This document shows, piece after piece, positions 434 through 17,653 of a stretch of 20,000 nucleotides of DNA. Numbering within the stretch: the first letter of the stretch is position 1; each line of letters opens with the position of its first letter. The translations under genes and the position numbers were made by a program. The DNA comes from an uncultured virus (IMG/VR IMGVR_UViG_3300017767_000007) (taxonomy: Duplodnaviria; Heunggongvirae; Uroviricota; Caudoviricetes), in the IMG/VR virus record IMGVR_UViG_3300017767_000007. The stretch is one strand, 5' to 3'. Under the pieces are notes generated by a model that saw only the letters and a program-made list of their open reading frames with translations, was not told where the DNA came from and made no database searches.

Positions 434-892
434 TTAATTTATAATTTCCAAGTGTGGCGACCACCATACTTCTCTATGCTCAAAATGCTTCCAAGTACTG
501 TTAGACATAATTTTTTTGGCTTCAGAATGTGCAAGTTTAATATAACCTAAATTGCTGACAACGCTCTTTAACTGAGACATTTTCGATTCTTCAATTGGAT
601 TTAATACTGCTACAATCGGTTTTCTAATTCGTTTGTTTCTTTCCTGTAAAATTTTAGTGTGATAACCTTTACCTCTAAAACCTCTCTTAACATAGGTATT
701 TCCGACCAAAATAAAAGAATCTATGTATGCTGTGCAAGTGTATGCCACTGGGACATCTCCTTCATACAAAAACCAATATGTCGCAAAATCAAAAAGAGGT
801 GGATAGCCCTTTTCTGTCGCTGGAATAATTTTTTCTCCCCAAATACTTTCAGCGTTTTCAATACCCATAACTAATTTTAAGAAAATGCTCAT
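434..892 (-). CDS. GNAT-family N-acetyltransferase
   Basis: Acetyl-CoA-binding motif A (YVKRGFRGKGYHTKIL) is preceded by beta-strands (WFLYEGDVPVAY, ILVGNT), with a C-terminal NLGY. The ATG at 892 overlaps the upstream stop (TGATG); GTG at 895 is the alternative start. Confidence 0.75.
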   Translation of the reverse strand: MSIFLKLVMGIENAESIWGEKIIPATEKGYPPLFDFATYWFLYEGDVPVAYTCTAYIDSFILVGNTYVKRGFRGKGYHTKILQERNKRIRKPIVAVLNPIEESKMSQLKSVVSNLGYIKLAHSEAKKIMSNSTWKHFEHREVWWSPHLEIIN

Positions 893-3800
893 CACCTTGA
901 AACTACATTTGTGTCAAAGACTTCTCCAGGACCATCAACCATATTTGCGCCTGTTTTCATAGTTACGCTGATTGATGAAAGTTTTACGGATTCTTGAGCT
1001 GCTGTATCACCATTGATACCAGCCGCTCTTCTGATTGTAATTTCTAAGTGATTACCTGCTACATCAGCACCTTCTATCTTTTGATTGAATAAATTGTGTC
1101 TTAAACCATTTTGGTTTATAGGGATGACAAGAGTTTCCGTTTTGCTAAATCCTGTTTCAACAACCTTTACAGTAGTGTATATCTTGGCAAACCCTTCTGC
1201 CGTTGGATTTGTATTAAGCCCTATTCCACTTGGAGTTGGAATGGTACTTTGGTTAGTTTGAGCAGACTCTGAATGCACAGTAGTATCAACCTTAGAAAGA
1301 ATAGTTACTGAATTATTTGTAACATTGTTAGGTACTACTTGTATTCCAGAAACTTCTGATACTTCGGCTTGTTCAGAATCACCAGCTGCAAATGTTCTGC
1401 CTGGCAATGAAATTCCAGTTTCGCTTAGAGCAGCACTTCCCCCCGATGGAGTAAAAACACCGTCATTAGAAACTAAAACAGAAGTTTCTATTGCTGCTGG
1501 CAATGGTCTGTCTTGACCTAATAACCCCCATTCCGAATTACCCATAGGCACCTGCATTTTCTTTTTTAGTCTTCCCATAATGCCTTTAGATACTTGATTA
1601 ATACCTATTGTGCTTGCAGTAGTGTAGCCTGTTTGACTACCAAATGTTCCTGGTGGGGTCAATTCAGGTCTTGGTCTTGGTTTGGGTGCAGGACCTGTTG
1701 TATCTCCGCCTGGAGGCACAGGTTCGCCATCGTCTTCATCAGAATCTCCACGACCCGATGTTCCACCTGGTCCTGCTGGACTTGGTTTAGGGTCATTAAT
1801 AATAGGAGGAGTCAAAAACATAGAACCTAAATTACTTAAGAAATGAGATTCATCAGTTGTTAGACCTAATACTACTTCTTCATGTCTTAGTGGGTTTATT
1901 TTCCATTGAACATTATTAATAATCAAAGGTTTGTTTGTAAATCCATAGGTTGAATCGCTATACTGTAGAGCAGTTCCTGTTCTAAAGTTAATGTCGTCAT
2001 TGATAATCAATCTCGGTGCATACCACAAAGTCCTGTCCCTCATACCAGACCCAAATTCGTCATAATATCTGCACCCAAGAGGGAATATAGACTTGTCATT
2101 ATATGAACCGCTGCCGAGGAGGGTGAAGTAATTTGTCGGTGCGGATTCAACAGGTACTCCGTGAGCAGGATTTAAGATATTTCCTAATGTATCTCCACAA
2201 CGCATTCTGATTAAAGATTCTAAGTATTCTCTGTTTACTGAAACTATAATTTTATTGACAATACCAGTTCCAAATGCGTATGTGGGTGGCAAATTAAGTT
2301 CAAGAAAACCATTATCCAATGAGCCATAACTAACGGTCTGTGAAAAGAAATCGTTTGCGTGGCTATGCCCTTGACCAGCTGCATTAACTGCTGCAATGTG
2401 ATTCAAATCTCCTCTATTACAAGCCCCAAACCATTCTGCTTCACCTATTAGATTTGGGTCTCCATTTGAGTCAGTACCGTTAGAAGAAACAAAGCCTGTG
2501 TTTCTTGTTGCATTATCTCTGAATATAGGGTCAATAACTGTTATAATAAACTTTGCCGATGTAGCAGCCTCGTCAATTGTTCCAGGAGTAGGCGCACCAC
2601 TTCTTGTCCCATCAACGCTAATAATAAATCTTAATTGATTTCCTGTTGTCATACTGTATTTAGGTAAGCCTTGAGGAACATAAACAACTTCAATAGCATT
2701 AGCAAGGCTGTTTGCACCATACCAATAATTATTTCCAGCCCAAGTAATTTCATCAGAAGCATTTACAACTGAAGCATCCCTGTTAGATGCTCCAATAAGA
2801 GGAGTATTGGTGTTATTGAGTTGGCCGTCAAGAGCACTTACTGAACCAGAAAAGAAATTGTTGTTCATCCTTCCCATCATATAGTGCGGGTACTTACCGT
2901 ATACTGTCCTTTGTGGGTCAGCAATATACCCATACCTTGCACCATCAAGCATAACATCATCTGATTGCGTTCCTCGCACTACTTTTGCATTTAATGAAAC
3001 GGGTGCTTTCTTTGCTTTCAAGTATTCTTGTTTTGCTAAATACTCTGCTTCTGCTTTAGTTCCCACATCGGGCATATCCATAATTTTCCAGCGAATGTTT
3101 TCTGTCCCTACTACTTTTGGATAGTCACAAAATGACTTAGAATCATTGAAGTAAACTCTAACATGAGTTACTCTTTGTTGTATGCTTGTGTTCATATTAG
3201 ATATATTCAAAACGCTTCTGTCGAGCGAGCGGAAAGAATTGTAGCCAGGTCTAAGTTCTATTCTGCCATCAGGACCAATTTGATAAGTAAATGTTTGTCC
3301 GAGGCCTGAAGTTCCAGTACCAGCTGCTTTTTGAATTTTTACTATGGCACTATACATTGTTGAATTTTTAGCATTTACTACACTGCCAAAACTGTCAAAT
3401 TGTGTATTATTGTGACCCCAGTGGGGACTGCCAATAGTTGCAGAGCCATTAGTGCTCATTATTTTTGTTTGTGGCACATTCTTAAAGGATGAAATACCTG
3501 TAAATTGAGATTTACCCAACCAATTTTTTGTCAAAGACAACATATTTAAGAATCTAAACTTTTCGCTTTCAAACCATGTTCCGCTGTTTTCGTTTTCGAC
3601 CTTACCAGAAATACGCATCATAAATCTCATACCACTAAGAGGAGCATACGAGTTATACGCAGTAACACTATCATAATCTTCTAAGTCAAATATCGCTCTT
3701 GAAGATGAACCGTTTTGTTGAGCAGCCTTAATGTTATTTGCTGCTATTGTTCTTTCAGCAGCAGTCTTGGTTGGAACTCCGTTCAAACCTCCTACAATAT

Positions 3801-6800
3801 CAACGAACACATTGTTTAAATAGTTATCAACTGTATTTCGACCAGACCAAGCATAATACCATGTATATGTTGTCTTTGTCTGTCCAGCTCCTTCAACTGC
3901 TACTATTCTTCCAACTCCGCTATCATCCCATTCTGTAACATCGTCGAGGTATAACCTGTTAATTCCACTAAAATTATCTGGTTGGTTTCTTTTTACTTCC
4001 GACGCATCTTGAATAAAGTCCATTTGTTGAGGGTGAGGCATATATGGGTGTTGAATAGTTTTGTATGAAGGCATTGCTTCAATCCAATAGTTATCCATCA
4101 TAATTGGGAATCCGTGACCTACTGCAAAGTAATCTTGTAGGTCTGTCCTCCCACCACCTATTCTTCCTGTCCTTCCAAGATTTGCTTCAGTATTCACATT
4201 CCAGAATTTGCTTGTGTCAATAACAACAAAGGAACCTGCTTTATCTTCCCAATTGTGGTATATTGAATTAGAGTCAGAGTTTGAGCCAAGAGGTAAAGCA
4301 GACCAGGGTGCTTGAGTTACAGGTTCAAGCGTTGAATCTAATTCCCATATGTCTAAGTCTTCACCAACCTTCAAATCAGCAAACTTAACAGGCGAGCCGT
4401 CAGGTTCTTCTGAATCAACAAATTCCATGCTAACACTATAATTATTAGAAATAGGCATCATTAAACCAAACTTCTTTTTCCTTAAACCAGAATCAGCGTT
4501 AGCAGTTCCATCATTTCTCATATCAGCCCAGAGAATCCAAATGTGTTTGTAATCGTTATCAATTTCTCTAAATCTTACAATACTTCCTGCAGAGTGGAAT
4601 TTAGACAAAAATTGTACTCCTGTAATTGAAGCATAAGTCTGGTCGACTGCGTTAAAACCAGCTAAACCTGTAAATGTAAAAGAATCTACTGTTCCGTCAG
4701 CATCCACAATTTCTCCAACGCCACCTGATGTAGCCATTGTAGTTACTAATCCTATTGGGTTTCCTGTTGTTTGGTCGTTTAATGCTAATCTTGTATTTGC
4801 TATTGATACTGTTTGACCAGTTGTATATGCGTTAGGAAAAATATCTGAAGATAATAATACATCTGGGTGATAGGTTGAACCATTTTTACCTTGACTGATT
4901 TTCTTTTCCTTGATACGCCCAAACTGCATTTGAAACCACTTAGATTTAGGCATATCTTGAATCCAACGAGAATGTACTGCTCTATATGGTCTGGCAATAG
5001 AATTATTAGCAGCAGCAAGAGGTGCAGTCGCTTGTTCGTTGCAATATTCTAAGTCAGGACTATCATACAAAAACCAGCCAACTTCTCCAGCAGTTCCTAA
5101 TCCAAGCCCTGTTATTTCGTTGTGGTTATAATATAGGTTCGCTAAATCTCCATAAGTAGCGTTATATGTTCCGTTACCTAATTGAGAAACTTCAAGATAA
5201 TGTGTCCCATCAATCCATGTTTGGCCTGGGTCTGGCATATTACCAAAGCCTGTGATTTCAAATACAAGAGTTACAATCCCATCCCAATTATTACCTGTTG
5301 TCCCTTGTGGAATTTGAATTGGGTTTCCTTGAGCGTCATTCCCACCATATCTAATTACCAAGCGTTGCCCAATGTATAAATCCCAGATGTTGATATTTTC
5401 ACCTGTCTTAAAGTAAAGTTTTGTTATTAAATTCCCAGCAGGTTCTGAGCCACCATGAGCATTATCAAGTATATTAGTAGCACTCCAATATTGCCAAACA
5501 TTGTCGCCATTAGAATTAACTCTAAACCAACCCAACCTATTTAACCAATCTTGCTGAGTATAGGAAAGTGTAGAATGAGCAGCATTCCAACTGGCATCAA
5601 ACATTTGTCCAGCAAAAGTATCGTTATTTTGATTTTGACTTGTTGGTGGGCCTGGTAAAGCAGACCCAAACCCATTCCAACTTCTATACAAATTATCAAA
5701 CGGAGTACTTCCTACAGTATAACCTCCACCAGGAACTTGTGCTCTTCCTGTCTTTGGGTTGTTAGGAATATCAGCGTCAATCAAAGCAAAATGATAACCA
5801 CAATTTGAGCTCCTTGTTGTTTGTTGCCAATTTGTAGGGTCAGGAATATCTCCAGACCAAAGGGTATTAGGGTAATCGTGTTGAAGTGGTGTAATGTTTG
5901 CTGTTGTGTGCTTAACCCTATTACTGCTGGTTAATCTCATTGGAATATCAAGGTTACCTCTTGTTAGGTCACGAGGAGTTACTGTTACTCCATTAATTGT
6001 GGTGGATGAGTCGCTTGGTAATTCAGATATTCTATTATACCTTTGACCTGACTGACTTGCACCTCTAAAAACTCTTGTGTCTGAAATAGTAACATATTGC
6101 TTTTCCCAATCTATTAAATGTCTTGTGTTGCCTGCAGAAGAACTAACAAATTCACCACCTAAAAGAGCTGGATTTTTATAGATTTCATCGAATTGCAAAG
6201 TCCAGTAATGCTTTAGTCCTGTCTTATGCCTTCCGTCATCATAACTGTCATTGTTGTCAATAGCCAAAATTTTACCTGATGGGACATATGTTTTGTCAAT
6301 GTAAAAGTGATTTGTTGATGGGTCGTGAACTGTAAATGAGCCACTATAATTAGTTGAGCCTTGTATGTTTATTGTTTCTCCTTGAGTATATCCGTGAGCA
6401 TCAGAATAAACTCTTAGTGGGTTTGTAAGTGCAGATGGATTAGCATAAGTCGCTTCAGGCTTTTGGAATCCATAAATGTGAGTTTGACCTACATAATCGT
6501 ATATAGTATCAGGTGCTCCTCCTTCTTCATTATACATTTGAATTGGGTGTCCCGAATTTAATCTCATTCTTGTTGATGTATCTGCATTATAGTTCGGTCT
6601 TTCATAACCTAAAGTACCTGTGCCTCTTTCAAGAGAAGTAGCACCTAAATGCAACTTTTCAATAAAGTTTGCAGATTCGTATGGTCGCCAGCCAATAGGT
6701 TCGGTTTCATCTATTTGTTCACTTTGTCCTACTTCCCAAATAGGTATTGTTCGGTCAAGAGAAGCCAAATAATCTCTGGCACTCAACTTTATGATTTTTT

Positions 6801-8505
6801 CTCCAGGTCGGTTTTGGTTGCTGGTGTATCTTTCAATATGCCCTCTCCAAACGCAACGATGGATATTATCACGGAATAGCATCAGTTCTTGCAGTTGGTT
6901 TGTTTCTTCTTCAAAGACCTTAAAAATATCTAAGTTATCGAAATCATCATGTATGTCTAACTGGCATTGAGATATACCGTTTGAAGTATAGTTAATAGAA
7001 GCCCTTGACAAAGTAACCTGTTCACCGCCAATGCCAGATGAATCTGCAATATCACGCCAAAGATATGCTCGGTCAAGAAGTGTTGTAATTTGAACATAAT
7101 CTGTGTCTGTCCCTGCTTCTTGGTAGCCATCAACCAATCCACTATCAAGGGACAAATCCCAACCAAAAACTTCTGGTGCTTTGTATTTATTTCCTGTATC
7201 GGGGTTAATTCCTATTGCTTGTGCTGAAGCAACAACTTCACCGTCATGTAATACATCATAAGTTCCTGCAGTCCAGTCAAACTTAAATTCAATATCATTC
7301 CAAATTTGCAGCAAAGTCCAGCGCCTTGTTTGGTCGGCTGATGGTATAGCATTATCAGATGGAAAAGATGTGCTTTCAGGCGTTTGTCCGAAGTTTGCTA
7401 ATACATTGTAGCCTCCGTCAACTGCGCCACCAGCCATTACAAGAGAAGCAGAGTTTGAACCTGTTAATGCTGATTTTTTAAACCAGGGGTTTCTGTCAAG
7501 ATAACCTGTTTTTAGACCTGTTGCTTCGGCTGTCAAAGGCGAGCCGCTGATTGCTGCGTTTTGTTTTCTTGAAGAAGTGGTAAATGTGTATGTAGCAGCT
7601 GGTACTGCTGAAGAAAATCCGTTAGCGTCAGTGTAGTCATCCCTTCTAAATCCTACTTTTATTGTGTAAGAATGACCTGTTGATTGTCCGTTGTCCCAAC
7701 CAGACCAATTGCGCCAAGCCATTCTAAGTCCAAAAATGTCTTTATCAGATGCAGCTCCTAAATTAGCGTTATAGGAAACAAGCCTTCTGGTCATATTTTC
7801 TCTAATGTGAGTGTTAATTGCTAACATAGGTTTTCCAGAATCAAGAGATTCAATTGGTTCTAAGATAGCCTTTGAAAATGGGTCTCCTGCATAACCTGTT
7901 TTTAGTTGGTTAGCGTCTGGAGCAACTTCTCCTACATGAACGCTGCAAATGTTTGCATATTGAAAGATGTTAGTCGCTGAAGCAAAGGAATCAGATTCAG
8001 CACTCCCACCTTTGTATAAATTGCTTGAAACCATATCAGGAATCGTGATTGCTGCGCTTTTTCCTTGCGATGGGTCATTGTTACCCAAATGAACAGAATA
8101 ACGCCCAGAAGTGTTATATCCGTTTGTTAAAGTTTGAAAGGAATCAAGAGATGCGTCTGCACCAAATTTGTATCGGTTGCCTTGTGTAATACCATCGGGA
8201 TATGAGGGTTGAGCCTTTCCTTCATACTTCCCAGAGTTTTTTCTCATAGTGTCGTTTGTTAAAAATTCATGAGCACCTAAATTATGAGTTTCATCTCCGT
8301 CAACTCGCTCTTTGTATGCCTTTTTGTATCGAGGGTTAAGGCGAGCCTCACCATTTAAAGAATTACCAAAATGGCTTGCTGTGTGAACAATTAGTCCAGT
8401 TAAATTAGGGTTGTTTTCATCATCAGCAATTGCTCGACTTGCGTTAAAGTCGTCATAGTAACCTGCCAAAAATACTGAATACTTTCTATCTACTGACTTT
8501 GCCAT
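892..8505 (-). CDS. Giant (2537 aa) tail-tip protein: baseplate hub/Tal-like scaffold with large inserted putative adhesion domains
   Basis: Lies directly downstream of the tape measure gene. Hub-like segments: VWRGHIERY...IKLSARDYLASLD; FTYQIGPDGRIEL...THVRVY...DVGTKAEAEYLAKQEY; FRTGTALQY...LIINNVQWKI...VVLGL. Rich in G/N/T/S and aromatic residues, with a Pro-rich linker near the C-terminus. Confidence 0.7.
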   Translation of the reverse strand: MAKSVDRKYSVFLAGYYDDFNASRAIADDENNPNLTGLIVHTASHFGNSLNGEARLNPRYKKAYKERVDGDETHNLGAHEFLTNDTMRKNSGKYEGKAQPSYPDGITQGNRYKFGADASLDSFQTLTNGYNTSGRYSVHLGNNDPSQGKSAAITIPDMVSSNLYKGGSAESDSFASATNIFQYANICSVHVGEVAPDANQLKTGYAGDPFSKAILEPIESLDSGKPMLAINTHIRENMTRRLVSYNANLGAASDKDIFGLRMAWRNWSGWDNGQSTGHSYTIKVGFRRDDYTDANGFSSAVPAATYTFTTSSRKQNAAISGSPLTAEATGLKTGYLDRNPWFKKSALTGSNSASLVMAGGAVDGGYNVLANFGQTPESTSFPSDNAIPSADQTRRWTLLQIWNDIEFKFDWTAGTYDVLHDGEVVASAQAIGINPDTGNKYKAPEVFGWDLSLDSGLVDGYQEAGTDTDYVQITTLLDRAYLWRDIADSSGIGGEQVTLSRASINYTSNGISQCQLDIHDDFDNLDIFKVFEEETNQLQELMLFRDNIHRCVWRGHIERYTSNQNRPGEKIIKLSARDYLASLDRTIPIWEVGQSEQIDETEPIGWRPYESANFIEKLHLGATSLERGTGTLGYERPNYNADTSTRMRLNSGHPIQMYNEEGGAPDTIYDYVGQTHIYGFQKPEATYANPSALTNPLRVYSDAHGYTQGETINIQGSTNYSGSFTVHDPSTNHFYIDKTYVPSGKILAIDNNDSYDDGRHKTGLKHYWTLQFDEIYKNPALLGGEFVSSSAGNTRHLIDWEKQYVTISDTRVFRGASQSGQRYNRISELPSDSSTTINGVTVTPRDLTRGNLDIPMRLTSSNRVKHTTANITPLQHDYPNTLWSGDIPDPTNWQQTTRSSNCGYHFALIDADIPNNPKTGRAQVPGGGYTVGSTPFDNLYRSWNGFGSALPGPPTSQNQNNDTFAGQMFDASWNAAHSTLSYTQQDWLNRLGWFRVNSNGDNVWQYWSATNILDNAHGGSEPAGNLITKLYFKTGENINIWDLYIGQRLVIRYGGNDAQGNPIQIPQGTTGNNWDGIVTLVFEITGFGNMPDPGQTWIDGTHYLEVSQLGNGTYNATYGDLANLYYNHNEITGLGLGTAGEVGWFLYDSPDLEYCNEQATAPLAAANNSIARPYRAVHSRWIQDMPKSKWFQMQFGRIKEKKISQGKNGSTYHPDVLLSSDIFPNAYTTGQTVSIANTRLALNDQTTGNPIGLVTTMATSGGVGEIVDADGTVDSFTFTGLAGFNAVDQTYASITGVQFLSKFHSAGSIVRFREIDNDYKHIWILWADMRNDGTANADSGLRKKKFGLMMPISNNYSVSMEFVDSEEPDGSPVKFADLKVGEDLDIWELDSTLEPVTQAPWSALPLGSNSDSNSIYHNWEDKAGSFVVIDTSKFWNVNTEANLGRTGRIGGGRTDLQDYFAVGHGFPIMMDNYWIEAMPSYKTIQHPYMPHPQQMDFIQDASEVKRNQPDNFSGINRLYLDDVTEWDDSGVGRIVAVEGAGQTKTTYTWYYAWSGRNTVDNYLNNVFVDIVGGLNGVPTKTAAERTIAANNIKAAQQNGSSSRAIFDLEDYDSVTAYNSYAPLSGMRFMMRISGKVENENSGTWFESEKFRFLNMLSLTKNWLGKSQFTGISSFKNVPQTKIMSTNGSATIGSPHWGHNNTQFDSFGSVVNAKNSTMYSAIVKIQKAAGTGTSGLGQTFTYQIGPDGRIELRPGYNSFRSLDRSVLNISNMNTSIQQRVTHVRVYFNDSKSFCDYPKVVGTENIRWKIMDMPDVGTKAEAEYLAKQEYLKAKKAPVSLNAKVVRGTQSDDVMLDGARYGYIADPQRTVYGKYPHYMMGRMNNNFFSGSVSALDGQLNNTNTPLIGASNRDASVVNASDEITWAGNNYWYGANSLANAIEVVYVPQGLPKYSMTTGNQLRFIISVDGTRSGAPTPGTIDEAATSAKFIITVIDPIFRDNATRNTGFVSSNGTDSNGDPNLIGEAEWFGACNRGDLNHIAAVNAAGQGHSHANDFFSQTVSYGSLDNGFLELNLPPTYAFGTGIVNKIIVSVNREYLESLIRMRCGDTLGNILNPAHGVPVESAPTNYFTLLGSGSYNDKSIFPLGCRYYDEFGSGMRDRTLWYAPRLIINDDINFRTGTALQYSDSTYGFTNKPLIINNVQWKINPLRHEEVVLGLTTDESHFLSNLGSMFLTPPIINDPKPSPAGPGGTSGRGDSDEDDGEPVPPGGDTTGPAPKPRPRPELTPPGTFGSQTGYTTASTIGINQVSKGIMGRLKKKMQVPMGNSEWGLLGQDRPLPAAIETSVLVSNDGVFTPSGGSAALSETGISLPGRTFAAGDSEQAEVSEVSGIQVVPNNVTNNSVTILSKVDTTVHSESAQTNQSTIPTPSGIGLNTNPTAEGFAKIYTTVKVVETGFSKTETLVIPINQNGLRHNLFNQKIEGADVAGNHLEITIRRAAGINGDTAAQESVKLSSISVTMKTGANMVDGPGEVFDTNVVSR

Positions 8506-8507
8506 TA

Positions 8508-11500
8508 CTAATCCACTGCTCCACTTCTAACCACTCCAGCATCAACTAAAGCACTAACTACTTCTTCGGTAATCGTATCAACCATTTCATGTAGCAACAT
8601 ACCATTAAAGTTGTTAGTTACAACCAGCTCAGTGTTTGCTATAAGGTTTTCGACTCCTTTATTTTGGACTTGCTTAACGAAGTCACCTGATATACCTGAT
8701 TGGGAAAGACCGAAGAACATTGCTTCACGGTTGTTGTTAAATTCCAACATTGTATCTCCTAAATGTTGTATTGAATCAGCCACATCATCAATATCATTCA
8801 TGCCACCAGACCCCATGCTGCTAATTTCATCAACGAGGAATTGTGCTTCTTCAGTCGTCATAGAAAATTGCTTTTCTAAGTCATCCACTACCTCTTTGTA
8901 TTTCATAACAGAGCCTGTGTCAAAGTCGCCTGAATCATCAACTGCTACTGCCAACATTTCTATTTCTTTATCGGTAAAGTTTTTGTCTAAGAAGTCCATA
9001 AATTCAGTAGTATATTCACCACTACTTGCTACTGCATTTGCGTAAGTTTCACTAAAGTTTGAAGCTGAATTTCCTATAACTTCGAGCAAATCTTCCATTT
9101 GAGCAGCACTTGCATTAATTCCTTCTTCTTGTTGGAAAGCAGCAATTATGGCAGCAACAGTCTTTGTTGTATCATCTTGCAGACCTTTAGTTTCTCGATA
9201 TGAGCCCATACTTGCTCCACCAGTAACATAATTTAGAATACCCATTCCCAGTGCATCATCGTATTCGTCTTCATATTCGTCTCTAAATTGACTCACTGCG
9301 CTGGCTGCATTTGCACTTGCGTCATCAGACATTTTCTTTTGCATTTCTGCTAATTCGCCTTGTAATACGAGTTGAGCAATCAATAGAGTTTCTTGAGTTT
9401 GCAAAGCACCAACATACTTTTGAGCGGCCTCTAATTGCATCATAAAGAGCCTTTCTTGAACAGTAGCACCGTCACCTGCTTTTTCTTTTAATTCATCCAT
9501 TTCATCTTTTACAATTCCAATGGCTGTTTGAGTTTGCTCTAATCCCATTGCATTAATTGTATCAGAATCTATTCCAGCTTCTAAAAAGGCATCACGAACC
9601 ATTGTTGGAACATCTTCTAATGCTGGTTCTAAACCTGTATTTCTTAAGTCTGTTAAAAGTGTGAGGCTGTCAGTTAAGTGTCCGTTAAATTCAACAACAC
9701 CCTCGCTCATGCTGTCTACTGAATCTGTAAATAAGTATGTGGCAGCAGTAATAGCAACTACAAGAGCGATACCAAGACCTGTGCTTACCAAAAAGGCTTT
9801 CATACCAGCAGCAGCAGCTCCAGCAGCAGCAGCAACACCTTTTAAGGAAAAGGAAAGTGTGTTGTTTGCAACAGCAGCACCCATACCTGCCGTTGCTTGT
9901 GCGAGCATAGAATTTGTCATCTGCATCATTTGTACTGTGCTCATAATCATAACAGGCATCATTAACGCCATGCTTGCTTTAGCACCCTTAGATGAATCGT
10001 CAAATAAAGTAATTAATGCAGATGCACCTCCTAAAATACCACTATACTTTGTCATTGTAGCATTCATAGCCATTTGCTTTGCCATCATCCTATCTTGGGT
10101 TTGAGCATGAGCAGTTTGAGCCATAATTATTTGAAACAAATTGGCAATTTGTTCCTCAGTTTGGAAGTTGTTTTCTTTCATTAACTGTGTTAAAATTTTA
10201 AGAGCCAAAGCCTCTTGGTCAGTCAAATCTTCCTTAATGAATTTTTTGGCAGTTACCCTTTCTATAATGGCAATTTCTTCTTGGCTCACATTATTTAGCA
10301 TATCTTGAGCACTCATGTGTTTATTCAAAGACAAAGCAATTTTTTCATTTTGCACTAACCTTTGAACCATCATTTGTAGATTTTTACCCTTTCTTTTGTC
10401 CTCTTCACCACCAATCAGCTTTTCTAATTCAAGTGACTGTCGAGCCATCAACAAGTCTGATTCGCTAATGCTTAACTTCATTCTTTTATCATTGAGAAGT
10501 TGATTTGCTAAGTCTTGCTCTATCATTCCTAACTCAACCAACCTCCCAAGCAGTTGAACTTCATGTCCTGCATTTTGTACAGTTGTAGTACCACTTCCAA
10601 CCTTAGCCATTTGTATCGCATGAATATTTCTCAATGCTTGTTCTTCTTGGTTAATTAGCATCAATTCATTACTTCTTAGTGCTACACCAGCCCTAACTGC
10701 TTCTAATTCTTCAGCAGACATTACTTGATTAGCAGCTGCCCTCGCTTGCACAACAGCAAGAATGCTGTTTTGTGCCTGTTCACTTTGCTTTACAGCATTA
10801 AGAATTTGACCTTCTAAACCAGCAATTTCAGCAGCAAGTCCTCGTCTTCGATTAGCAAGAGCGTTTATATCGCCTGCAGCTGAAGCCTGCATGTGCATTT
10901 TCAATAAAGTATTAGTCCCAGAAAATTCTTTCATCTGCTCATATGCGAGTGCTGTTTTACCTATGTTAGCAATCCTTTGTCTAACTTGCATTTCTTTTAT
11001 TGCCATATCCGTTGTAAAACTTTGCATTTGTGCTGCTTGGTTATAGATTTGTGGATTAACCAATTGCTCGCCTTGCATAGCCCTTAGAATCGTTTGCTGG
11101 GTCTGCATTGCTACACTTAGGGATTTAATGTTAATCATGGCTTCCACGACAGGCCCCATCACCTTTTGCACCCTTTGGAATGCAAAAGCAAAGTCCATAC
11201 CTTTTTTTACTACTGAGCCTAAAACAGCATCCATAATATCGAAGTTTTCAAAGTCTAATTTTGCTAATGCCTTAAAATCATTAGTTATACCTCCAAGAGG
11301 ACCCTCAGACCCAGATTCGTAAAAGTCGGTCATAGCCCTGTTAAATGATATTTGTTGTTTTGTCGCTTTCATTTGTGCTGGGATAAAAGCAGTACCCATT
11401 GCTGCTTCGGTATTCTTTAACTCGGCTTGGAGTTTCTGGAGTTTAGTTGCTTGGTCGTCAAGTTTAATATTAACTTCATCTTGAGCATCTGATAACCCAA

Positions 11501-12515
11501 GAGCAGCCTGAGTCGCTAATGTTTGTTGTCTATCAGCACCTTCAACTAACTTAAGGAATCTTACATAGTGGTCGTTACCAGCAACTATTTGAGCAATATG
11601 TTGCTTTTCAGCATCTTCTAACTTAGGGAATTGTTGCGCTAACTGTTGAACAATGTCAGAAAGAGGAAGCAAGTTGCCTGCAGTATCTTTAACTTGAACA
11701 CCATAAGCCTGTAAAATCTTATTGTTATCGTGGGTATCAGAACCTAATCGAGCATAAATCATTTTGAGGGCACGACCAGCCTTACCCATCTCTTCACCAG
11801 ATTCAACCATTACTGCAGCACTTGCAGCCATATCAGCAATAGATTCACCTGTCATGTGTGCCTGACTTGCGAATTGATTCATAATGAAAGTAATTTGTTG
11901 CATTGTAGCAGCAGATCTGTTTTCAACTGTGTTTAGTTGAGTCAAAGTCTTCATAGAATTTGCTCTAACAAAGTTTGCTCTTTCTTCAGCATCCATAGCC
12001 TCAATTTGAGACTTAGCCATACCACCGAACATAAAGTTAGTCTGTTGTTGCAGGTTTACCATCTTTTGCATAGCATCTTGGGTTTCCATATCACCAATCA
12101 ACGCAAACTTAATACCTACCTCAGTCGCAGCAACAACTGAACCTTCACCACCTACTACATCTTTAAGTTGTGCCATTTTAGCACCAGCCTCAAGAGCCTT
12201 ATCAGCAGTAAATCCAAATTGTAAACCAATGCTCTTAATTTGTTCTCTGACTTCTTCAAGATTTTCAGTTTCACCCATAAACTTGTCAAATTGAATACGA
12301 GCCTTAGCAAATTCTTGAGCCAAAGGGACAGTTGCTTGGACTAATCCATCCATTTGCTCTGTTATCTGGTCAACTGCTTGGTGAACACCCGAAAGACCGT
12401 TAAGCATAATAGCATTCATAATGTTCATCTGTGCTCTTGCATCAGACAAAAGACGCTTCGCTTGAAATGAACCAACCACTTCAAACATTACCATTGCTGC
12501 GCCTGTGGTTGCCAT
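8508..12515 (-). CDS. Tail tape measure protein (TP901-like core region), 1335 aa
   Basis: Long Ala/Gln/Met-rich helical protein with the TMP core motif (GEEMGKAGRALKMIYARL...YGVQVKDTAGNLLPLSDIVQQL) and hydrophobic Ala/Gly stretches. Located after the chaperone pair. RBS GGGAGTGA upstream. Confidence 0.9.
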   Translation of the reverse strand: MATTGAAMVMFEVVGSFQAKRLLSDARAQMNIMNAIMLNGLSGVHQAVDQITEQMDGLVQATVPLAQEFAKARIQFDKFMGETENLEEVREQIKSIGLQFGFTADKALEAGAKMAQLKDVVGGEGSVVAATEVGIKFALIGDMETQDAMQKMVNLQQQTNFMFGGMAKSQIEAMDAEERANFVRANSMKTLTQLNTVENRSAATMQQITFIMNQFASQAHMTGESIADMAASAAVMVESGEEMGKAGRALKMIYARLGSDTHDNNKILQAYGVQVKDTAGNLLPLSDIVQQLAQQFPKLEDAEKQHIAQIVAGNDHYVRFLKLVEGADRQQTLATQAALGLSDAQDEVNIKLDDQATKLQKLQAELKNTEAAMGTAFIPAQMKATKQQISFNRAMTDFYESGSEGPLGGITNDFKALAKLDFENFDIMDAVLGSVVKKGMDFAFAFQRVQKVMGPVVEAMINIKSLSVAMQTQQTILRAMQGEQLVNPQIYNQAAQMQSFTTDMAIKEMQVRQRIANIGKTALAYEQMKEFSGTNTLLKMHMQASAAGDINALANRRRGLAAEIAGLEGQILNAVKQSEQAQNSILAVVQARAAANQVMSAEELEAVRAGVALRSNELMLINQEEQALRNIHAIQMAKVGSGTTTVQNAGHEVQLLGRLVELGMIEQDLANQLLNDKRMKLSISESDLLMARQSLELEKLIGGEEDKRKGKNLQMMVQRLVQNEKIALSLNKHMSAQDMLNNVSQEEIAIIERVTAKKFIKEDLTDQEALALKILTQLMKENNFQTEEQIANLFQIIMAQTAHAQTQDRMMAKQMAMNATMTKYSGILGGASALITLFDDSSKGAKASMALMMPVMIMSTVQMMQMTNSMLAQATAGMGAAVANNTLSFSLKGVAAAAGAAAAGMKAFLVSTGLGIALVVAITAATYLFTDSVDSMSEGVVEFNGHLTDSLTLLTDLRNTGLEPALEDVPTMVRDAFLEAGIDSDTINAMGLEQTQTAIGIVKDEMDELKEKAGDGATVQERLFMMQLEAAQKYVGALQTQETLLIAQLVLQGELAEMQKKMSDDASANAASAVSQFRDEYEDEYDDALGMGILNYVTGGASMGSYRETKGLQDDTTKTVAAIIAAFQQEEGINASAAQMEDLLEVIGNSASNFSETYANAVASSGEYTTEFMDFLDKNFTDKEIEMLAVAVDDSGDFDTGSVMKYKEVVDDLEKQFSMTTEEAQFLVDEISSMGSGGMNDIDDVADSIQHLGDTMLEFNNNREAMFFGLSQSGISGDFVKQVQNKGVENLIANTELVVTNNFNGMLLHEMVDTITEEVVSALVDAGVVRSGAVD

Positions 12516-12555
12516 GTTATCACTCCCTCTTAATACTCAAGAACCTCATATTCGT

Positions 12556-12813
12556 TTAATCGTTCCGCTTGGCTCGCTTTTGTTTTCGCTTTTCCCATGC
12601 TGAACGAGCGCTTTTTGAGCCACCCTTTTTGCCTTTCTTGGCTTTTTCTGTTGCTTCTCCAATTTGGTCTTGTATCTCGCAAGCAACTGCTAAATCTAAT
12701 TCCAAACGGTATGCTCCGCCTGGCTCGCAATACTTCATTACTAAGTCCGATGGAAGGACACCCTTGTAGGCTTGGCACAAGACGGGTGCTATCTTGTAAA
12801 TTAGACCAAAGGG
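12556..12813 (-). CDS. Tail assembly chaperone C-terminal extension (lambda gpT-equivalent), probably expressed only through a -1 frameshift
   Basis: The -1 frame is open from just after a TGA at 12825-12823 to the TAA at 12558-12556 (PFGLIYKIAPVLCQAYKGVLPSDL...LELDLAVACEIQ...). It has no ATG/RBS at its 5' end (the track starts it at TTG 12780) and overlaps the chaperone's 3' end at the slippery site. Confidence 0.75.
   Translation of the reverse strand, partial: PFGLIYKIAPVLCQAYKGVLPSDLVMKYCEPGGAYRLELDLAVACEIQDQIGEATEKAKKGKKGGSKSARSAWEKRKQKRAKRND
12758..12813 (-). promoter_or_regulatory. -1 programmed ribosomal frameshift signal: slippery heptamer C CCU UUG, 8-nt spacer, predicted H-type pseudoknot
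   Basis: X XXY YYZ heptamer in the correct phase at 12813-12807. Stem 1 is UACAAGAU (12798-12791) with GUCUUGUG (12783-12776); stem 2 is GCACCC (12789-12784) with GGGUGU (12763-12758). Confidence 0.75.
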
Positions 12814-13163
12814 ACTGCGCCCTCATTCGTGTCACCCCTAACAAACATCAACAATTCTCTGAGTTCGTTAGAAGTTAGAATGCCCAAATCAAAATCGGCA
12901 GGTTCAACAATACATTTTGGAATCCATTCTGTGATTTGCATTTCAACACCGACATTTTGTTCTTCGAGGTATTCAACAAACTCCGCTTGTTGGTCTTCAG
13001 TCCATTCTTCGACTGACATACCAAAGTCACGGAATTTACGCAAGGCTCGACCTTGAGCTGCTTCCCACTTCATTCTATCTAAACCGCTGGCTTGTCGGAC
13101 TACGAGTTTAACTTTTCCTGATTCGTCGTCTCCGAACTCAAATTCTTTTTTCATTACTGGCAT
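12801..13163 (-). CDS. Tail assembly chaperone (lambda gpG-equivalent), about 120 aa
   Basis: Acidic small protein between the tube and TMP genes with chaperone-like motifs (LVVRQASGLD, KCIVEP). Likely start is ATG 13163 behind GAAGTGA; the track uses GTG 13172. Confidence 0.8.
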   Translation of the reverse strand: MPVMKKEFEFGDDESGKVKLVVRQASGLDRMKWEAAQGRALRKFRDFGMSVEEWTEDQQAEFVEYLEEQNVGVEMQITEWIPKCIVEPADFDLGILTSNELRELLMFVRGDTNEGAVPLV

Positions 13164-13200
13164 TTTTTTCACTTCGCTACTAAACTATTCTAAACTTTGT

Positions 13201-13224: not shown

Positions 13225-14229
13225 TCAAATGTATGCGCTTGCTTGTGCGCTTCTAATGGTGCATTCGGCCATACAAGTGTTTGTATTGTCGAACAACCCA
13301 AAGAAAGGAGTTGTCATGGTTTGGTGGTCACGACCAGAAACAGATGTTTCAGGTGAATCAAATACAACCTTGAAGAAGTCAAATTCAATGTCAGCGTTTG
13401 CTGTTTCAATATACTTCATACGGAGTGCTGGAGTACCAACAACGGATGAATCGTAAATGAATGTTGAACCAGATGCTTGAGTCAAACCGTTGTATGTTGG
13501 CTCTGATGCGCCAGCAGTATACATTGGTTCGTTAAATTCAATGTTTCCGCTAATAGCCCTACGAGTAACAGGAGGTGCTTGTGTAAGAGTCAAGTTTCCA
13601 ATAGAGAAACCAGAATCAAGGTCACGGTTAATTGAAAGTTCAAAGTCAGAAGATTTAACCGATGCAGACTTTGTTGCATTGCCGTTAAAGAAAATTTCTG
13701 CGTTAGCATAATACATTGGTTCATTGTCTGGGAAAGAAGGAGTCGCCATTGTTCCAGATGAAGGAGATTCAGATTTTCCTTGACATTCAAAGGACATAGT
13801 AGTAAAGTCACCAACGCTTGCAGATACAGACATTTTGTTTACAGACATACCTGTAAAGATGTGGTCACGAGCAGTTCTTCCGATGTGGATAGAAAAGGTT
13901 GGGTAAAAGTCAGTAGTTGCAGCACCTTCTTCAAGTGTATGGACATTCGGAGAACCTGCCACTACAGTATCAGTAGCGAATAGTCCAGCAATCATCGAAC
14001 AAGTAAAGTCATCAGTCATCATAACGGTATTCAAAGAACCTTCACAGTATTCTTTACCACGAACCACCTTCGATGCACCATACTTAGACATATCTTCACG
14101 AACCATTGTTTCGTAAATATGTTTGAATGATTCGTCGTCTATTTCACCATATACAGGTGAGGTTGCAGGGTCTGTTCCATAAGTTGTTTCTTTCTCGATT
14201 GATACATAACGGCTGTCGAAGTCTCCCAT
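13225..14229 (-). CDS. Major tail tube protein (334 aa)
   Basis: N-terminal YVSIEKETTYGTDP plus FTGMSVNKMSVSAS and RRAISGNIEF motifs typical of siphovirus tube proteins. Canonical position between terminator and chaperone. RBS AGGAG upstream. Confidence 0.85.
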   Translation of the reverse strand: MGDFDSRYVSIEKETTYGTDPATSPVYGEIDDESFKHIYETMVREDMSKYGASKVVRGKEYCEGSLNTVMMTDDFTCSMIAGLFATDTVVAGSPNVHTLEEGAATTDFYPTFSIHIGRTARDHIFTGMSVNKMSVSASVGDFTTMSFECQGKSESPSSGTMATPSFPDNEPMYYANAEIFFNGNATKSASVKSSDFELSINRDLDSGFSIGNLTLTQAPPVTRRAISGNIEFNEPMYTAGASEPTYNGLTQASGSTFIYDSSVVGTPALRMKYIETANADIEFDFFKVVFDSPETSVSGRDHQTMTTPFFGLFDNTNTCMAECTIRSAQASAYI

Positions 14230-17312: not shown

Positions 17313-17468
17313 TCACATCAGCACCTGAGCATCCATTCCGAGAGAAGCAAGCATAGCAAAGAAGGCATATTTCAAGTATTTAGCCATTGTTGATAATTCA
17401 AAGACTGCTTGTTCAAGCAAACGAACCCTGTCGTCTAAATCTTCAACTCTATCTTCTAAATTTGCCAT
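17313..17468 (-). CDS. Small coiled-coil protein with a C-terminal hydrophobic segment (51 aa; XhlA/holin-like architecture), not in the ORF track
   Basis: Translated by hand: MANLEDRVEDLDDRVRLLEQAVFELSTMAKYLKYAFFAMLASLGMDAQVLM*. An alternative in-frame ATG at 17477 overlaps the upstream stop (ATGA). It fills the operon gap exactly. Confidence 0.75.
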   Translation of the reverse strand: MANLEDRVEDLDDRVRLLEQAVFELSTMAKYLKYAFFAMLASLGMDAQVLM

Positions 17469-17473
17469 TACAA

Positions 17474-17653
17474 TCATTCCTCTTCAATCATTTCTTTTGC
17501 GTCTTCTGCTATACCTGTTACTTCTTCAATAATTTCCTCGATTTCATCAAGGGTAATTTTTCCGTCAGCCATAACTCTTTTGTAAAGAGCAAGACCCTTT
17601 TCACCTACATAGGCAGCAACCATAGCATACAGCACAATACTTTCTAATTCCAT
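17474..17653 (-). CDS. Small protein with an N-terminal hydrophobic helix and acidic tail (59 aa; putative holin-like membrane protein), not in the ORF track
   Basis: Translated by hand: MELESIVLYAMVAAYVGEKGLALYKRVMADGKITLDEIEEIIEEVTGIAEDAKEMIEEE*. RBS GTGAGG upstream; starts 2 nt after the previous stop. Confidence 0.75.
   Translation of the reverse strand: MELESIVLYAMVAAYVGEKGLALYKRVMADGKITLDEIEEIIEEVTGIAEDAKEMIEEE

What the first reader, a model, noticed from the sequence alone, without database searches (positions are those of the whole stretch)
12556..13163. -1 programmed ribosomal frameshift joining tail chaperone G to a G-T fusion in a probable archaeal virus
Seen: the chaperone ends ...GCA GTC CCT TTG GTC TAA, containing an in-phase X XXY YYZ heptamer C CCU UUG (12813-12807). 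The -1 frame is closed by TGA at 12825-12823, three codons before the heptamer, then stays open to 12556 with no proper start, so a shift must occur in the ~20-nt window containing the heptamer. Predicted products are ~120 aa and ~202 aa from ATG 13163. Established: lambda gpG/gpGT-type frameshifts between tube and tape-measure genes are widespread in long-tailed viruses. Inference: an archaeal host, where few recoding cases have been characterised.
Basis: partly seen in the sequence, partly recalled or inferred. Interest (0 to 1): 0.75.

Follow-up and report, generated by a model that had tools for sequence, protein, structure and literature searches.

The report
Shape-shifting frameshift in marine archaeal virus
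A marine virus that probably infects archaea uses a well-known ribosome-slippage trick to make two tail-building helper proteins from one gene, but its relatives have swapped the slip signal and even its direction, and this lineage also keeps an unexplained third reading frame open over the same stretch.

Summary
Observation confirmed. The 120-aa gene between tail tube and tape measure ends C CCT TTG GTC TAA; a startless -1 frame (T, 83 aa) gives a 202-aa G-T. In 123 distinct homologous loci T is kept, in the -1 frame in 121; 89 carry C CCT TTR (89/89 exact, seven different preceding residues), 12 T TTT TTG, 20 T TTT C. This is a lambda G/GT-type programmed frameshift, inferred, not shown, and already proposed for haloviruses. 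Host probably archaeal (magrovirus-like, group C pattern). Two additions. (1) Two relatives put T in the +1 frame behind TCC TTT C(GT/TT), the influenza PA-X-type motif, on separate branches (AU p 6e-73): direction switched, probably twice. (2) In the window's clade (10 loci) the third frame, U (window 12826-12530, 98 aa, strong SD-like start), lacks stops through T: 2 of 71 versus 53 of 153 states (p 3e-8), though its amino acids are unconstrained. No stimulatory RNA structure found. New variant of a known kind; interest 0.55.

The parts
13225..14229 (-). Tail tube protein, 334 aa
   Evidence: PF18906 Phage_tube_2 E 2.9e-21; phrog_290
13180..13192 (-). TAG triplets at 5-nt period just upstream of the G start; possible operator, unexplained
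   Evidence: Only such run in the 46.8-kb genome; 15 of 122 loci have one versus 0.1% of shuffles
12801..13163 (-). G, tail assembly chaperone, 120 aa, acidic (pI 4.4)
   Evidence: Position; AF2 model pLDDT 88; best PDB row HK97 tail assembly chaperone 2ob9, weak, E 0.3; ESM Atlas lead PF06894 score 0.90
12832..12839 (-). SD-like AGGGGTGA inside the Arg-Gly-Asp codons of G, 5 nt before the U-frame ATG
   Evidence: -10.6 kcal/mol, strongest of 9 starts tested; not beyond synonymous shuffles, z -0.6
12823..12825 (-). TGA closing the -1 frame three codons before the heptamer
12807..12813 (-). Slippery heptamer C CCT TTG (-1 shift site; junction ...GAVP[L/F]GLIYK)
   Evidence: 89 of 89 Pro-Leu loci written xxC CCT TTR; control Pro 36 of 74 CCT
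12556..12807 (-). T domain, -1 frame, 83 aa, no own start; G-T fusion 202 aa
   Evidence: T-profile E 7e-36; invariant A7 K15 L22 Y26 G31 D38 in 37 rows; helical model pLDDT 87
12530..12826 (-). U, third frame (+1 to G), 98 aa, basic (pI 10.9), open in all 10 loci of the window's clade
   Evidence: no database homologue
12544..12564 (-). Conserved DNA over the T stop (A-rich then TTAAA); possible archaeal BRE/TATA promoter for the tape-measure gene
   Evidence: DNA alignment of 9 clade loci; promoter reading is inference
8508..12515 (-). Tail tape measure protein, 1335 aa
   Evidence: phrog_28 E 3e-16 and six more tape-measure families; PF10145 E 1e-17

Best explanation
A lambda G/GT-type programmed -1 ribosomal frameshift in a long-tailed marine virus of (probably Marine Group II) archaea. 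Most ribosomes stop at the G stop and make the 120-aa chaperone that coats the tape measure protein; a minority slip back one base on C CCU UUG (tRNA-Pro CCU to CCC, tRNA-Leu UUG to UUU; or P-site-only slip giving Phe) and make the 202-aa G-T. The slip is probably low-level and driven by the site itself and the stop codon 0-5 codons downstream, with no conserved RNA stimulator. Selection acts on the G:GT output, not on the mechanism: lineages have replaced the site with U UUU UUG, with U UUU C, and twice with a +1 site UCC UUU C. In the window's clade the third frame U is also translated, most likely from the SD-ATG at 12839-12824, and what matters is that ribosomes run through it, not its amino acids. 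Shown: sequence anatomy, conservation, tree. Inferred: shifting itself, efficiency, binding partners, host, U translation.
For: Site: 89/89 xxC CCT TTR, codon before Pro is V, I, P, L, A, C or T yet always ends in C; control Leu uses six codons. Crossover: G frame conserved up to Pro-Leu, T frame from the next codon on (G 78/89, V 77, A 83, P 87, L 85), G-frame tail length varies. T kept at 81-104 codons in all untruncated loci; overlap window 16-106 nt. Compensatory sites: 12 loci T TTT TTG (residues change PL to NFL), 20 loci T TTT C; classes cluster on the tree, 4 changes vs 24.7 shuffled. +1 loci: T-profile E 1e-34 and 1e-31 in the +1 frame only; each is a 2-nt insertion plus AAT to TCC against its nearest -1 relative; not one clade, p-AU 6e-73. 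Host: PolB best phage hits HCTV-5 and HVTV-1, PriL/PriX-like primase, Hef/ERCC4-like nuclease and GroEL, no ATP-dependent ligase in 0 of 4 genomes, 3 complete. U.
Against: No protein, ribosome-profiling or reporter evidence. 10 of 121 -1 loci have no perfect heptamer (only T TTT C). Z = G is outside the usual rule quoted in PMC8211752, though HVTV-1 also has G GGA AAG. No conserved 3' structure (window z -0.02; RNAalifold -5.2 kcal/mol, covariation -0.07) and no family-wide SD stimulator (mean z +0.39, 89 loci). G and T have no significant family or fold hit. Each +1 case rests on one contig. MCM not detected (0 of 4) and the PolD-exonuclease link not confirmed. U shows no drop in T's synonymous divergence (about 50% at 4-fold sites) and its start spacing varies (GTG 11 nt from the SD in L005, L018, L021).
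Confidence: 0.85

Rival explanations
1. T is a separate small gene started by its own codon or by re-initiation after the G stop; the heptamer is kept for the amino acids Pro-Leu.
For: TTG at 12780 and ATG at 12738 exist; gene callers list T homologues as free-standing 85-aa proteins (A0A516MCV4).
Against: Conserved T residues begin right after the heptamer, upstream of those codons; first ATG not conserved; SD -2.1 kcal/mol; synonymous lock 89/89 is not explained by amino acids.
Confidence: 0.05
2. Transcriptional slippage rather than ribosomal slippage makes G-T; direction changes among orthologues are the mark of slippage according to Antonov et al. 2013.
For: PMC3711429 passage: direction is conserved among orthologues for ribosomal shifts, not for transcriptional realignment; one clade has a 6-T run.
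Against: The window and 89 loci have only CCCTTT, the +1 loci only TTT; the site is in codon phase everywhere; the one RNA-run contig reaching the site shows no indel (contigs drop rare forms).
Confidence: 0.04
3. The window's site is a three-way switch: some ribosomes go -2 (tRNA-Pro CCU to CCC to UCC/CCC) or +1 into U and make a third product G-U with a basic tail.
For: U is open from before the heptamer to at least T codon 80 in 10 of 10 clade loci, including the first 45 columns (0 of 24 vs 25 of 90, p 0.002); two other lineages (L196, L050) keep U open to T codon 74; -2 and +1 shifts are used by other tail genes.
Against: L065 and L088 have the same local sequence GTC CCT TTG GTC TGA yet U is closed after 18 codons; A-site re-pairing at -2 is poor (inference); U residues are not conserved.
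Confidence: 0.2
4. The open U frame is an inherited accident of one clade with no function.
For: The 10 loci are one clade (support 99), so the tests are not independent; no aa constraint; no homologue; picked out after looking at the data.
Against: Third positions are about half diverged yet T occurs at 2 of 71 distinct risk states, both at the last codons, vs 53 of 153; G (118/252) and tape measure (382/734) of the same loci show no avoidance; 0 of 89 other loci scored have zero stops.
Confidence: 0.25

Closest known systems
Phage lambda gpG/gpGT (G GGA AAG, -1) and the conserved tail-chaperone frameshift of long-tailed phages (Atkins 2016, PMC5009743, passages; Xu 2004 not seen)
   Same: Two overlapping ORFs between tube and tape measure, X XXY YYZ near the G end, startless T, similar sizes.
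   Different: No detectable sequence homology; site C CCU UUR; probable archaeal host; third frame open in this clade.
Halovirus G-T frameshifts: HVTV-1 (joined CDS HVTV1_130, G GGA AAG), HCTV-1/2/5, Hardycor1 (G GGA AAT, PMC7911831 passages)
   Same: Archaeal tailed viruses, same locus, -1 direction, also inferred from sequence.
   Different: G and T do not align to HVTV-1 (HHalign prob 0.2 and 0.4); different heptamer; marine, 40% GC.
+1 sites UCC_UUU_CGU of influenza PA-X and TTT-CGC of HF1-group haloviruses (PMC7230728 passages), HSTV-2 +1
   Same: L113 ends TCC TTT CGT TGA and L115 has TCC TTT CTT with T in +1.
   Different: Here the +1 site arose inside a -1 family, from T TTT TTG, probably twice; found in relatives, not in the window.
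Magrovirus group C (Philosof 2017, PMC5434244 passages)
   Same: Marine, PolB, primase, GroEL, no ATP-dependent ligase, phosphoesterase-type nuclease beside the terminase.
   Different: Complete relatives 67-74 kb; MCM not detected; no reference sequence held for direct comparison.

Membership tests
lambda G/GT-type tail-chaperone frameshift | Lies between tail tube and tape measure genes | tested here: met
   same order in 16 relatives listed (some with an extra ORF between tube and G)
lambda G/GT-type tail-chaperone frameshift | Overlapping second ORF without its own conserved start | tested here: met
lambda G/GT-type tail-chaperone frameshift | In-phase shift-prone sequence in the overlap, conserved beyond amino-acid need | tested here: met
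   89/89 C CCT TTR; 111 of 121 -1 loci have a perfect heptamer, 10 only T TTT C
lambda G/GT-type tail-chaperone frameshift | G has a tail-assembly-chaperone fold or family hit | tested here: inconclusive
   HK97 chaperone is rank 1 in PDB but E 0.3; Atlas lead PF06894 0.90; YqbN Z 4.6; no HMM hit
lambda G/GT-type tail-chaperone frameshift | G-T fusion protein is made at a low ratio to G | not testable with these tools
   needs reporter, proteomics or ribosome profiling
lambda G/GT-type tail-chaperone frameshift | G binds tape measure protein, T binds tube protein | not testable with these tools
   needs binding assays
Magrovirales (group C) | Archaeal-type PolB, archaeo-eukaryotic primase, GroEL-type chaperonin, marine | tested here: met
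Magrovirales (group C) | No ATP-dependent DNA ligase | tested here: met
   PF01068 in 0 of 4 genomes, 3 of them complete; control rang in 6 of 14
Magrovirales (group C) | MCM helicase; PolD-exonuclease-like gene in the structural module | tested here: inconclusive
   PF00493 0 of 4; metallophosphoesterase beside TerL but no PolD hit by phmmer; the paper used profile-profile searches
Magrovirales (group C) | Clusters with reference magroviruses in MCP/PolB trees; host link to Poseidoniales | not testable with these tools
   ON649702 and PP497039 not held; no relative in GTDB genomes

The most novel reading that the evidence does not exclude
In this clade of marine archaeal viruses one 300-nt stretch is read in all three frames: G stops, a -1 slip makes G-T, and a third route (a -2/+1 slip at the same site, or an SD-led start hidden in G) sends ribosomes through U, whose job is the act of translation (keeping ribosomes on the mostly untranslated T region so transcription runs on into the tape-measure gene) or a basic G-U product. 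Across the family, archaeal ribosomes support interchangeable -1 and PA-X-type +1 sites, reached by 2-nt insertions at least twice.
Probability: 0.35. Interest if true: 0.8.

Novelty: new variant of a known kind. Interest (0 to 1): 0.55.

Why it matters
Only one archaeal -1 frameshift (fucA1) has been shown by experiment according to the 2021 review (PMC8211752 passages). This abundant family (238 IMG/VR matches) supplies a natural allelic series of shift sites (C CCU UUR, U UUU UUG, U UUU C, UCC UUU C) in one gene, ready for a Haloferax or Thermococcus reporter. Repeated -1 to +1 switching among orthologues shows how a recoding signal can change direction without losing its product, and convergence on the influenza PA-X motif suggests that motif works on archaeal ribosomes. 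The open third frame, if translated, would be an unrecognised layer in tail-gene control. The core G/GT phenomenon itself is well known.

Tried and rejected
3' stimulatory structure: none conserved (one of five, L005, had z -3.1, not shared). 5' SD stimulator: not enriched over synonymous shuffles. Own start for T: rejected. Homology of G or T to HVTV-1 G/T: none. G, tube, MCP and primase had no tblastn match in the GenBank phage set. No relatives in GTDB genomes with G or tube alignments. U has no match among called proteins of 53-172 aa. Tube plus T complex prediction: no verdict, score 0.00; says nothing either way. VIA-align of G gave only helical look-alikes, best Z 5.2; T model matched only an unnamed family member. 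Sigma-70 promoter scan at chance level. RNA run X15 holds contigs over 12505-12825 but contigs cannot show expression or frame. The 94-row tree is the quick search, not the finished careful one. Earlier scan findings: three look-ups, nothing. Literature searches that found no magrovirus frameshift, no CCCTTTG chaperone site and no archaeal UCC UUU CGU paper; Xu 2004, Pietila 2013, Sencilo 2013 (not held), Nishimura 2017 and Zhou 2023 were not seen and no supplements were opened, so an annotation there is not excluded; the Aoguangviridae profile labels a TAC gene without mention of a shift.

Full report
Observation. The window is part of a 46,791-base virus record, 72% complete. On the minus strand a tail tube gene (14229-13225; PF18906, E 2.9e-21) is followed by a 120-aa ORF G (13163-12801) and the tape measure gene (12515-8508). 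Contigs from three other DNA runs cross the site without indels.

Family survey. Eight IMG/VR scans and one metagenome scan gave homologous loci; one search found 238 matches of which 80 were returned, so the set is a sample. One search examined 194 loci (window included, some contigs fetched twice), dropped 5 truncated ones and collapsed 189 to 123 distinct sequences; L196 was read separately and also has C CCT TTG. All 123 keep T: 121 in the -1 frame, 2 in the +1 frame. Sites in the 121: C CCT TTG 78, C CCT TTA 11, T TTT TTG 12, and a class of 20 sharing T TTT C, of which 10 also have C CCT TTT and 10 have no perfect heptamer. In the 89 Pro-Leu loci Pro is always CCT, Leu always TTR and the preceding codon always ends in C although it encodes seven different residues; a control Pro is CCT in 36 of 74 and a control Leu uses six codons. 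Amino-acid conservation passes from the G frame to the T frame exactly at the site, and the G-frame tail after it varies from 0 to 9 codons. The first T-frame ATG is at no fixed place. These loci are related, so counts overstate independence; after 95% de-duplication 94 rows remain and the site classes need 4 changes on the tree against 24.7 for shuffled labels (quick tree).

Identity of G and T. No HMM family matches. The G model (pLDDT 88) ranks the HK97 tail assembly chaperone first in PDB but only at E 0.3; several chaperones appear weakly in BFVD; the Atlas gives a lambda-G lead at 0.90. So the chaperone call rests mainly on position and on the G/T anatomy. T is a helical, basic domain with six invariant residues in 37 rows.

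Mechanism. Tandem slip of tRNA-Pro (CCU to CCC) and tRNA-Leu (UUG to UUU) is the simplest reading (established X XXY YYZ model; inference here); the T TTT C class suggests single-tRNA slips also suffice. No conserved downstream structure and no family-wide upstream SD stimulator were found; a stop codon follows within 0-5 codons in nearly all loci. By analogy with lambda (ratio about 30:1, G binds tape measure, T binds tube; Atkins 2016 passages) the shift is probably a few percent.

Direction switch. L113 ends G with TCC TTT CGT TGA and L115 has TCC TTT CTT; in both T lies in the +1 frame (profile E 1.4e-34, 1.2e-31) and the -1 frame is closed. Each differs from its nearest -1 relative by a 2-nt insertion and AAT to TCC, restoring the same junction length. 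Both sit inside the T TTT TTG clade; with 600 aa of tape measure added, L113 groups with L105/107/108/111 (100/99) and L115 with L118 (100/100), and holding them together is rejected (p-AU 6e-73; 14 rows). Two gains are more parsimonious than an ancestral +1 with at least three reversals. UCC_UUU_CGU is the influenza PA-X cassette and TTT-CGC was proposed for HF1-group haloviruses. Each case rests on one contig, but an assembly error would hardly make this motif twice. Antonov 2013 reports that ribosomal shift direction is normally kept among orthologues; Atkins notes a fungal family with both directions and that different phages use -1, -2 or +1, so switching has precedent but I found none within one archaeal virus family (searches listed under Tried and rejected).

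Third frame. In the window's clade (10 distinct loci; 8 rows at support 99 on a long branch) the remaining frame U has no stop across T in 8 loci and one near the end in 2, against 5.6-9.1 expected from synonymous shuffles (P at most 0.0015 each); none of the other 89 loci scored has zero (mean 8.7 seen, 9.9 expected). A U stop needs T at a T-frame third position before AA, AG or GA: such sites have T in 2 of 144 cases against 160 of 390 elsewhere in T, while G (118/252), tape measure (382/734) and T of 78 other loci (658/1741) show no avoidance; counting distinct aligned states gives 2 of 71 against 53 of 153, p 3e-8. Yet four-fold sites in T are about half diverged, so U's residues are not under clear selection. 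In the window U runs from ATG 12826 to TAA 12530 (98 aa, pI 10.9) behind the strongest SD-like sequence of nine starts tested; all 10 loci have an ATG or GTG there, and the Arg codon forming the SD is AGG/CGG in 9 of 10 against 8 of 81 elsewhere, but the SD energy is not beyond shuffles. L196 and L050 keep U open to T codon 74, which may be chance. I put about 0.7 on U being kept open by selection; independent initiation seems likelier than a -2/+1 slip because L065 and L088 share the local site but not the open frame. The test was chosen after seeing the data and the loci are kin.

Host. Best phage-collection matches of PolB are haloviruses HCTV-5 and HVTV-1 (23-25% identity); the genome has a PriL/PriX-like primase subunit, Hef/ERCC4-like nuclease, Cas4-like nuclease and GroEL; holders are marine and viral metagenomes; complete relatives are 67-74 kb with PolB 52-57% identical and no ATP-dependent ligase. 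This fits the description of group C magroviruses, but MCM and the PolD-exonuclease link were not confirmed, terminase and GroEL best hits are bacterial phages and no reference was available. Archaeal host about 0.85, Poseidoniales about 0.7.

Papers seen: passages of PMC5009743, PMC7911831, PMC7230728, PMC8211752, PMC11375127 (a capsid -1 shift in MSTV1), PMC8651126, PMC11706807 (no 'frameshift' in main text), PMC3711429, PMC10885494, PMC12451623, PMC5434244; passages and one section of PMC10160649; whole text of PMC10768690. The BRE/TATA and TRAP-like readings are recalled motifs, not tested.

Verdict. A real, strongly conserved G/GT frameshift of a known kind, in a virus group where I found no report of it. 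The added value is the allelic series with repeated -1 to +1 switching and the unexplained open third frame in the window's own clade. New variant of a known kind; interest 0.55.

Noticed in passing
window 13192-13180 (-); L018, L005, L021 upstream of G: TAG triplets at 5-nt spacing just before the G ribosome-binding site; 15 of 122 loci vs 0.1% of shuffles, spacing 5 is the commonest. Looks like a repeat site for an RNA-binding protein (TRAP-like, recalled) or a stop array.
   Followed up: partly
window 12564-12544 (-): DNA over the T stop is conserved in the clade although T ends at different places (4-nt offset between window/L001 and L005/L002); possible archaeal promoter for the tape measure gene.
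   Followed up: partly
L007, L050, L089, L157, L162, L170, L172, L182, tape measure 5' end: In many other clades the tape-measure frame has a hydrophobic N-terminal extension that the window's clade lacks; possible second start or signal/membrane segment.
   Followed up: no
L147-L155, L182 tube gene: Tube proteins of the T TTT TTG/+1 clade are about 540-590 aa against 334 aa in the window, suggesting an added C-terminal domain.
   Followed up: no
L196 and L050, T region: U frame open to T codon 74 in two unrelated lineages; database protein P0024 is a chimera reading about 80 aa of this frame.
   Followed up: partly
G000:C1:5442-6617 (L030): ABC-ATPase plus GNAT acetyltransferase fusion (phrog_11143); a second GNAT-like gene lies at window 434-895.
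   Followed up: no
window 892-8505 (-): 2537-aa protein after the tape measure with no Pfam or PHROG hit and a Pro-rich segment near the C terminus; probable tail tip/adhesin.
   Followed up: no
window 17313-17653 (-): Two small ORFs (59 and 54 aa) with hydrophobic segments, holin-like candidates.
   Followed up: no
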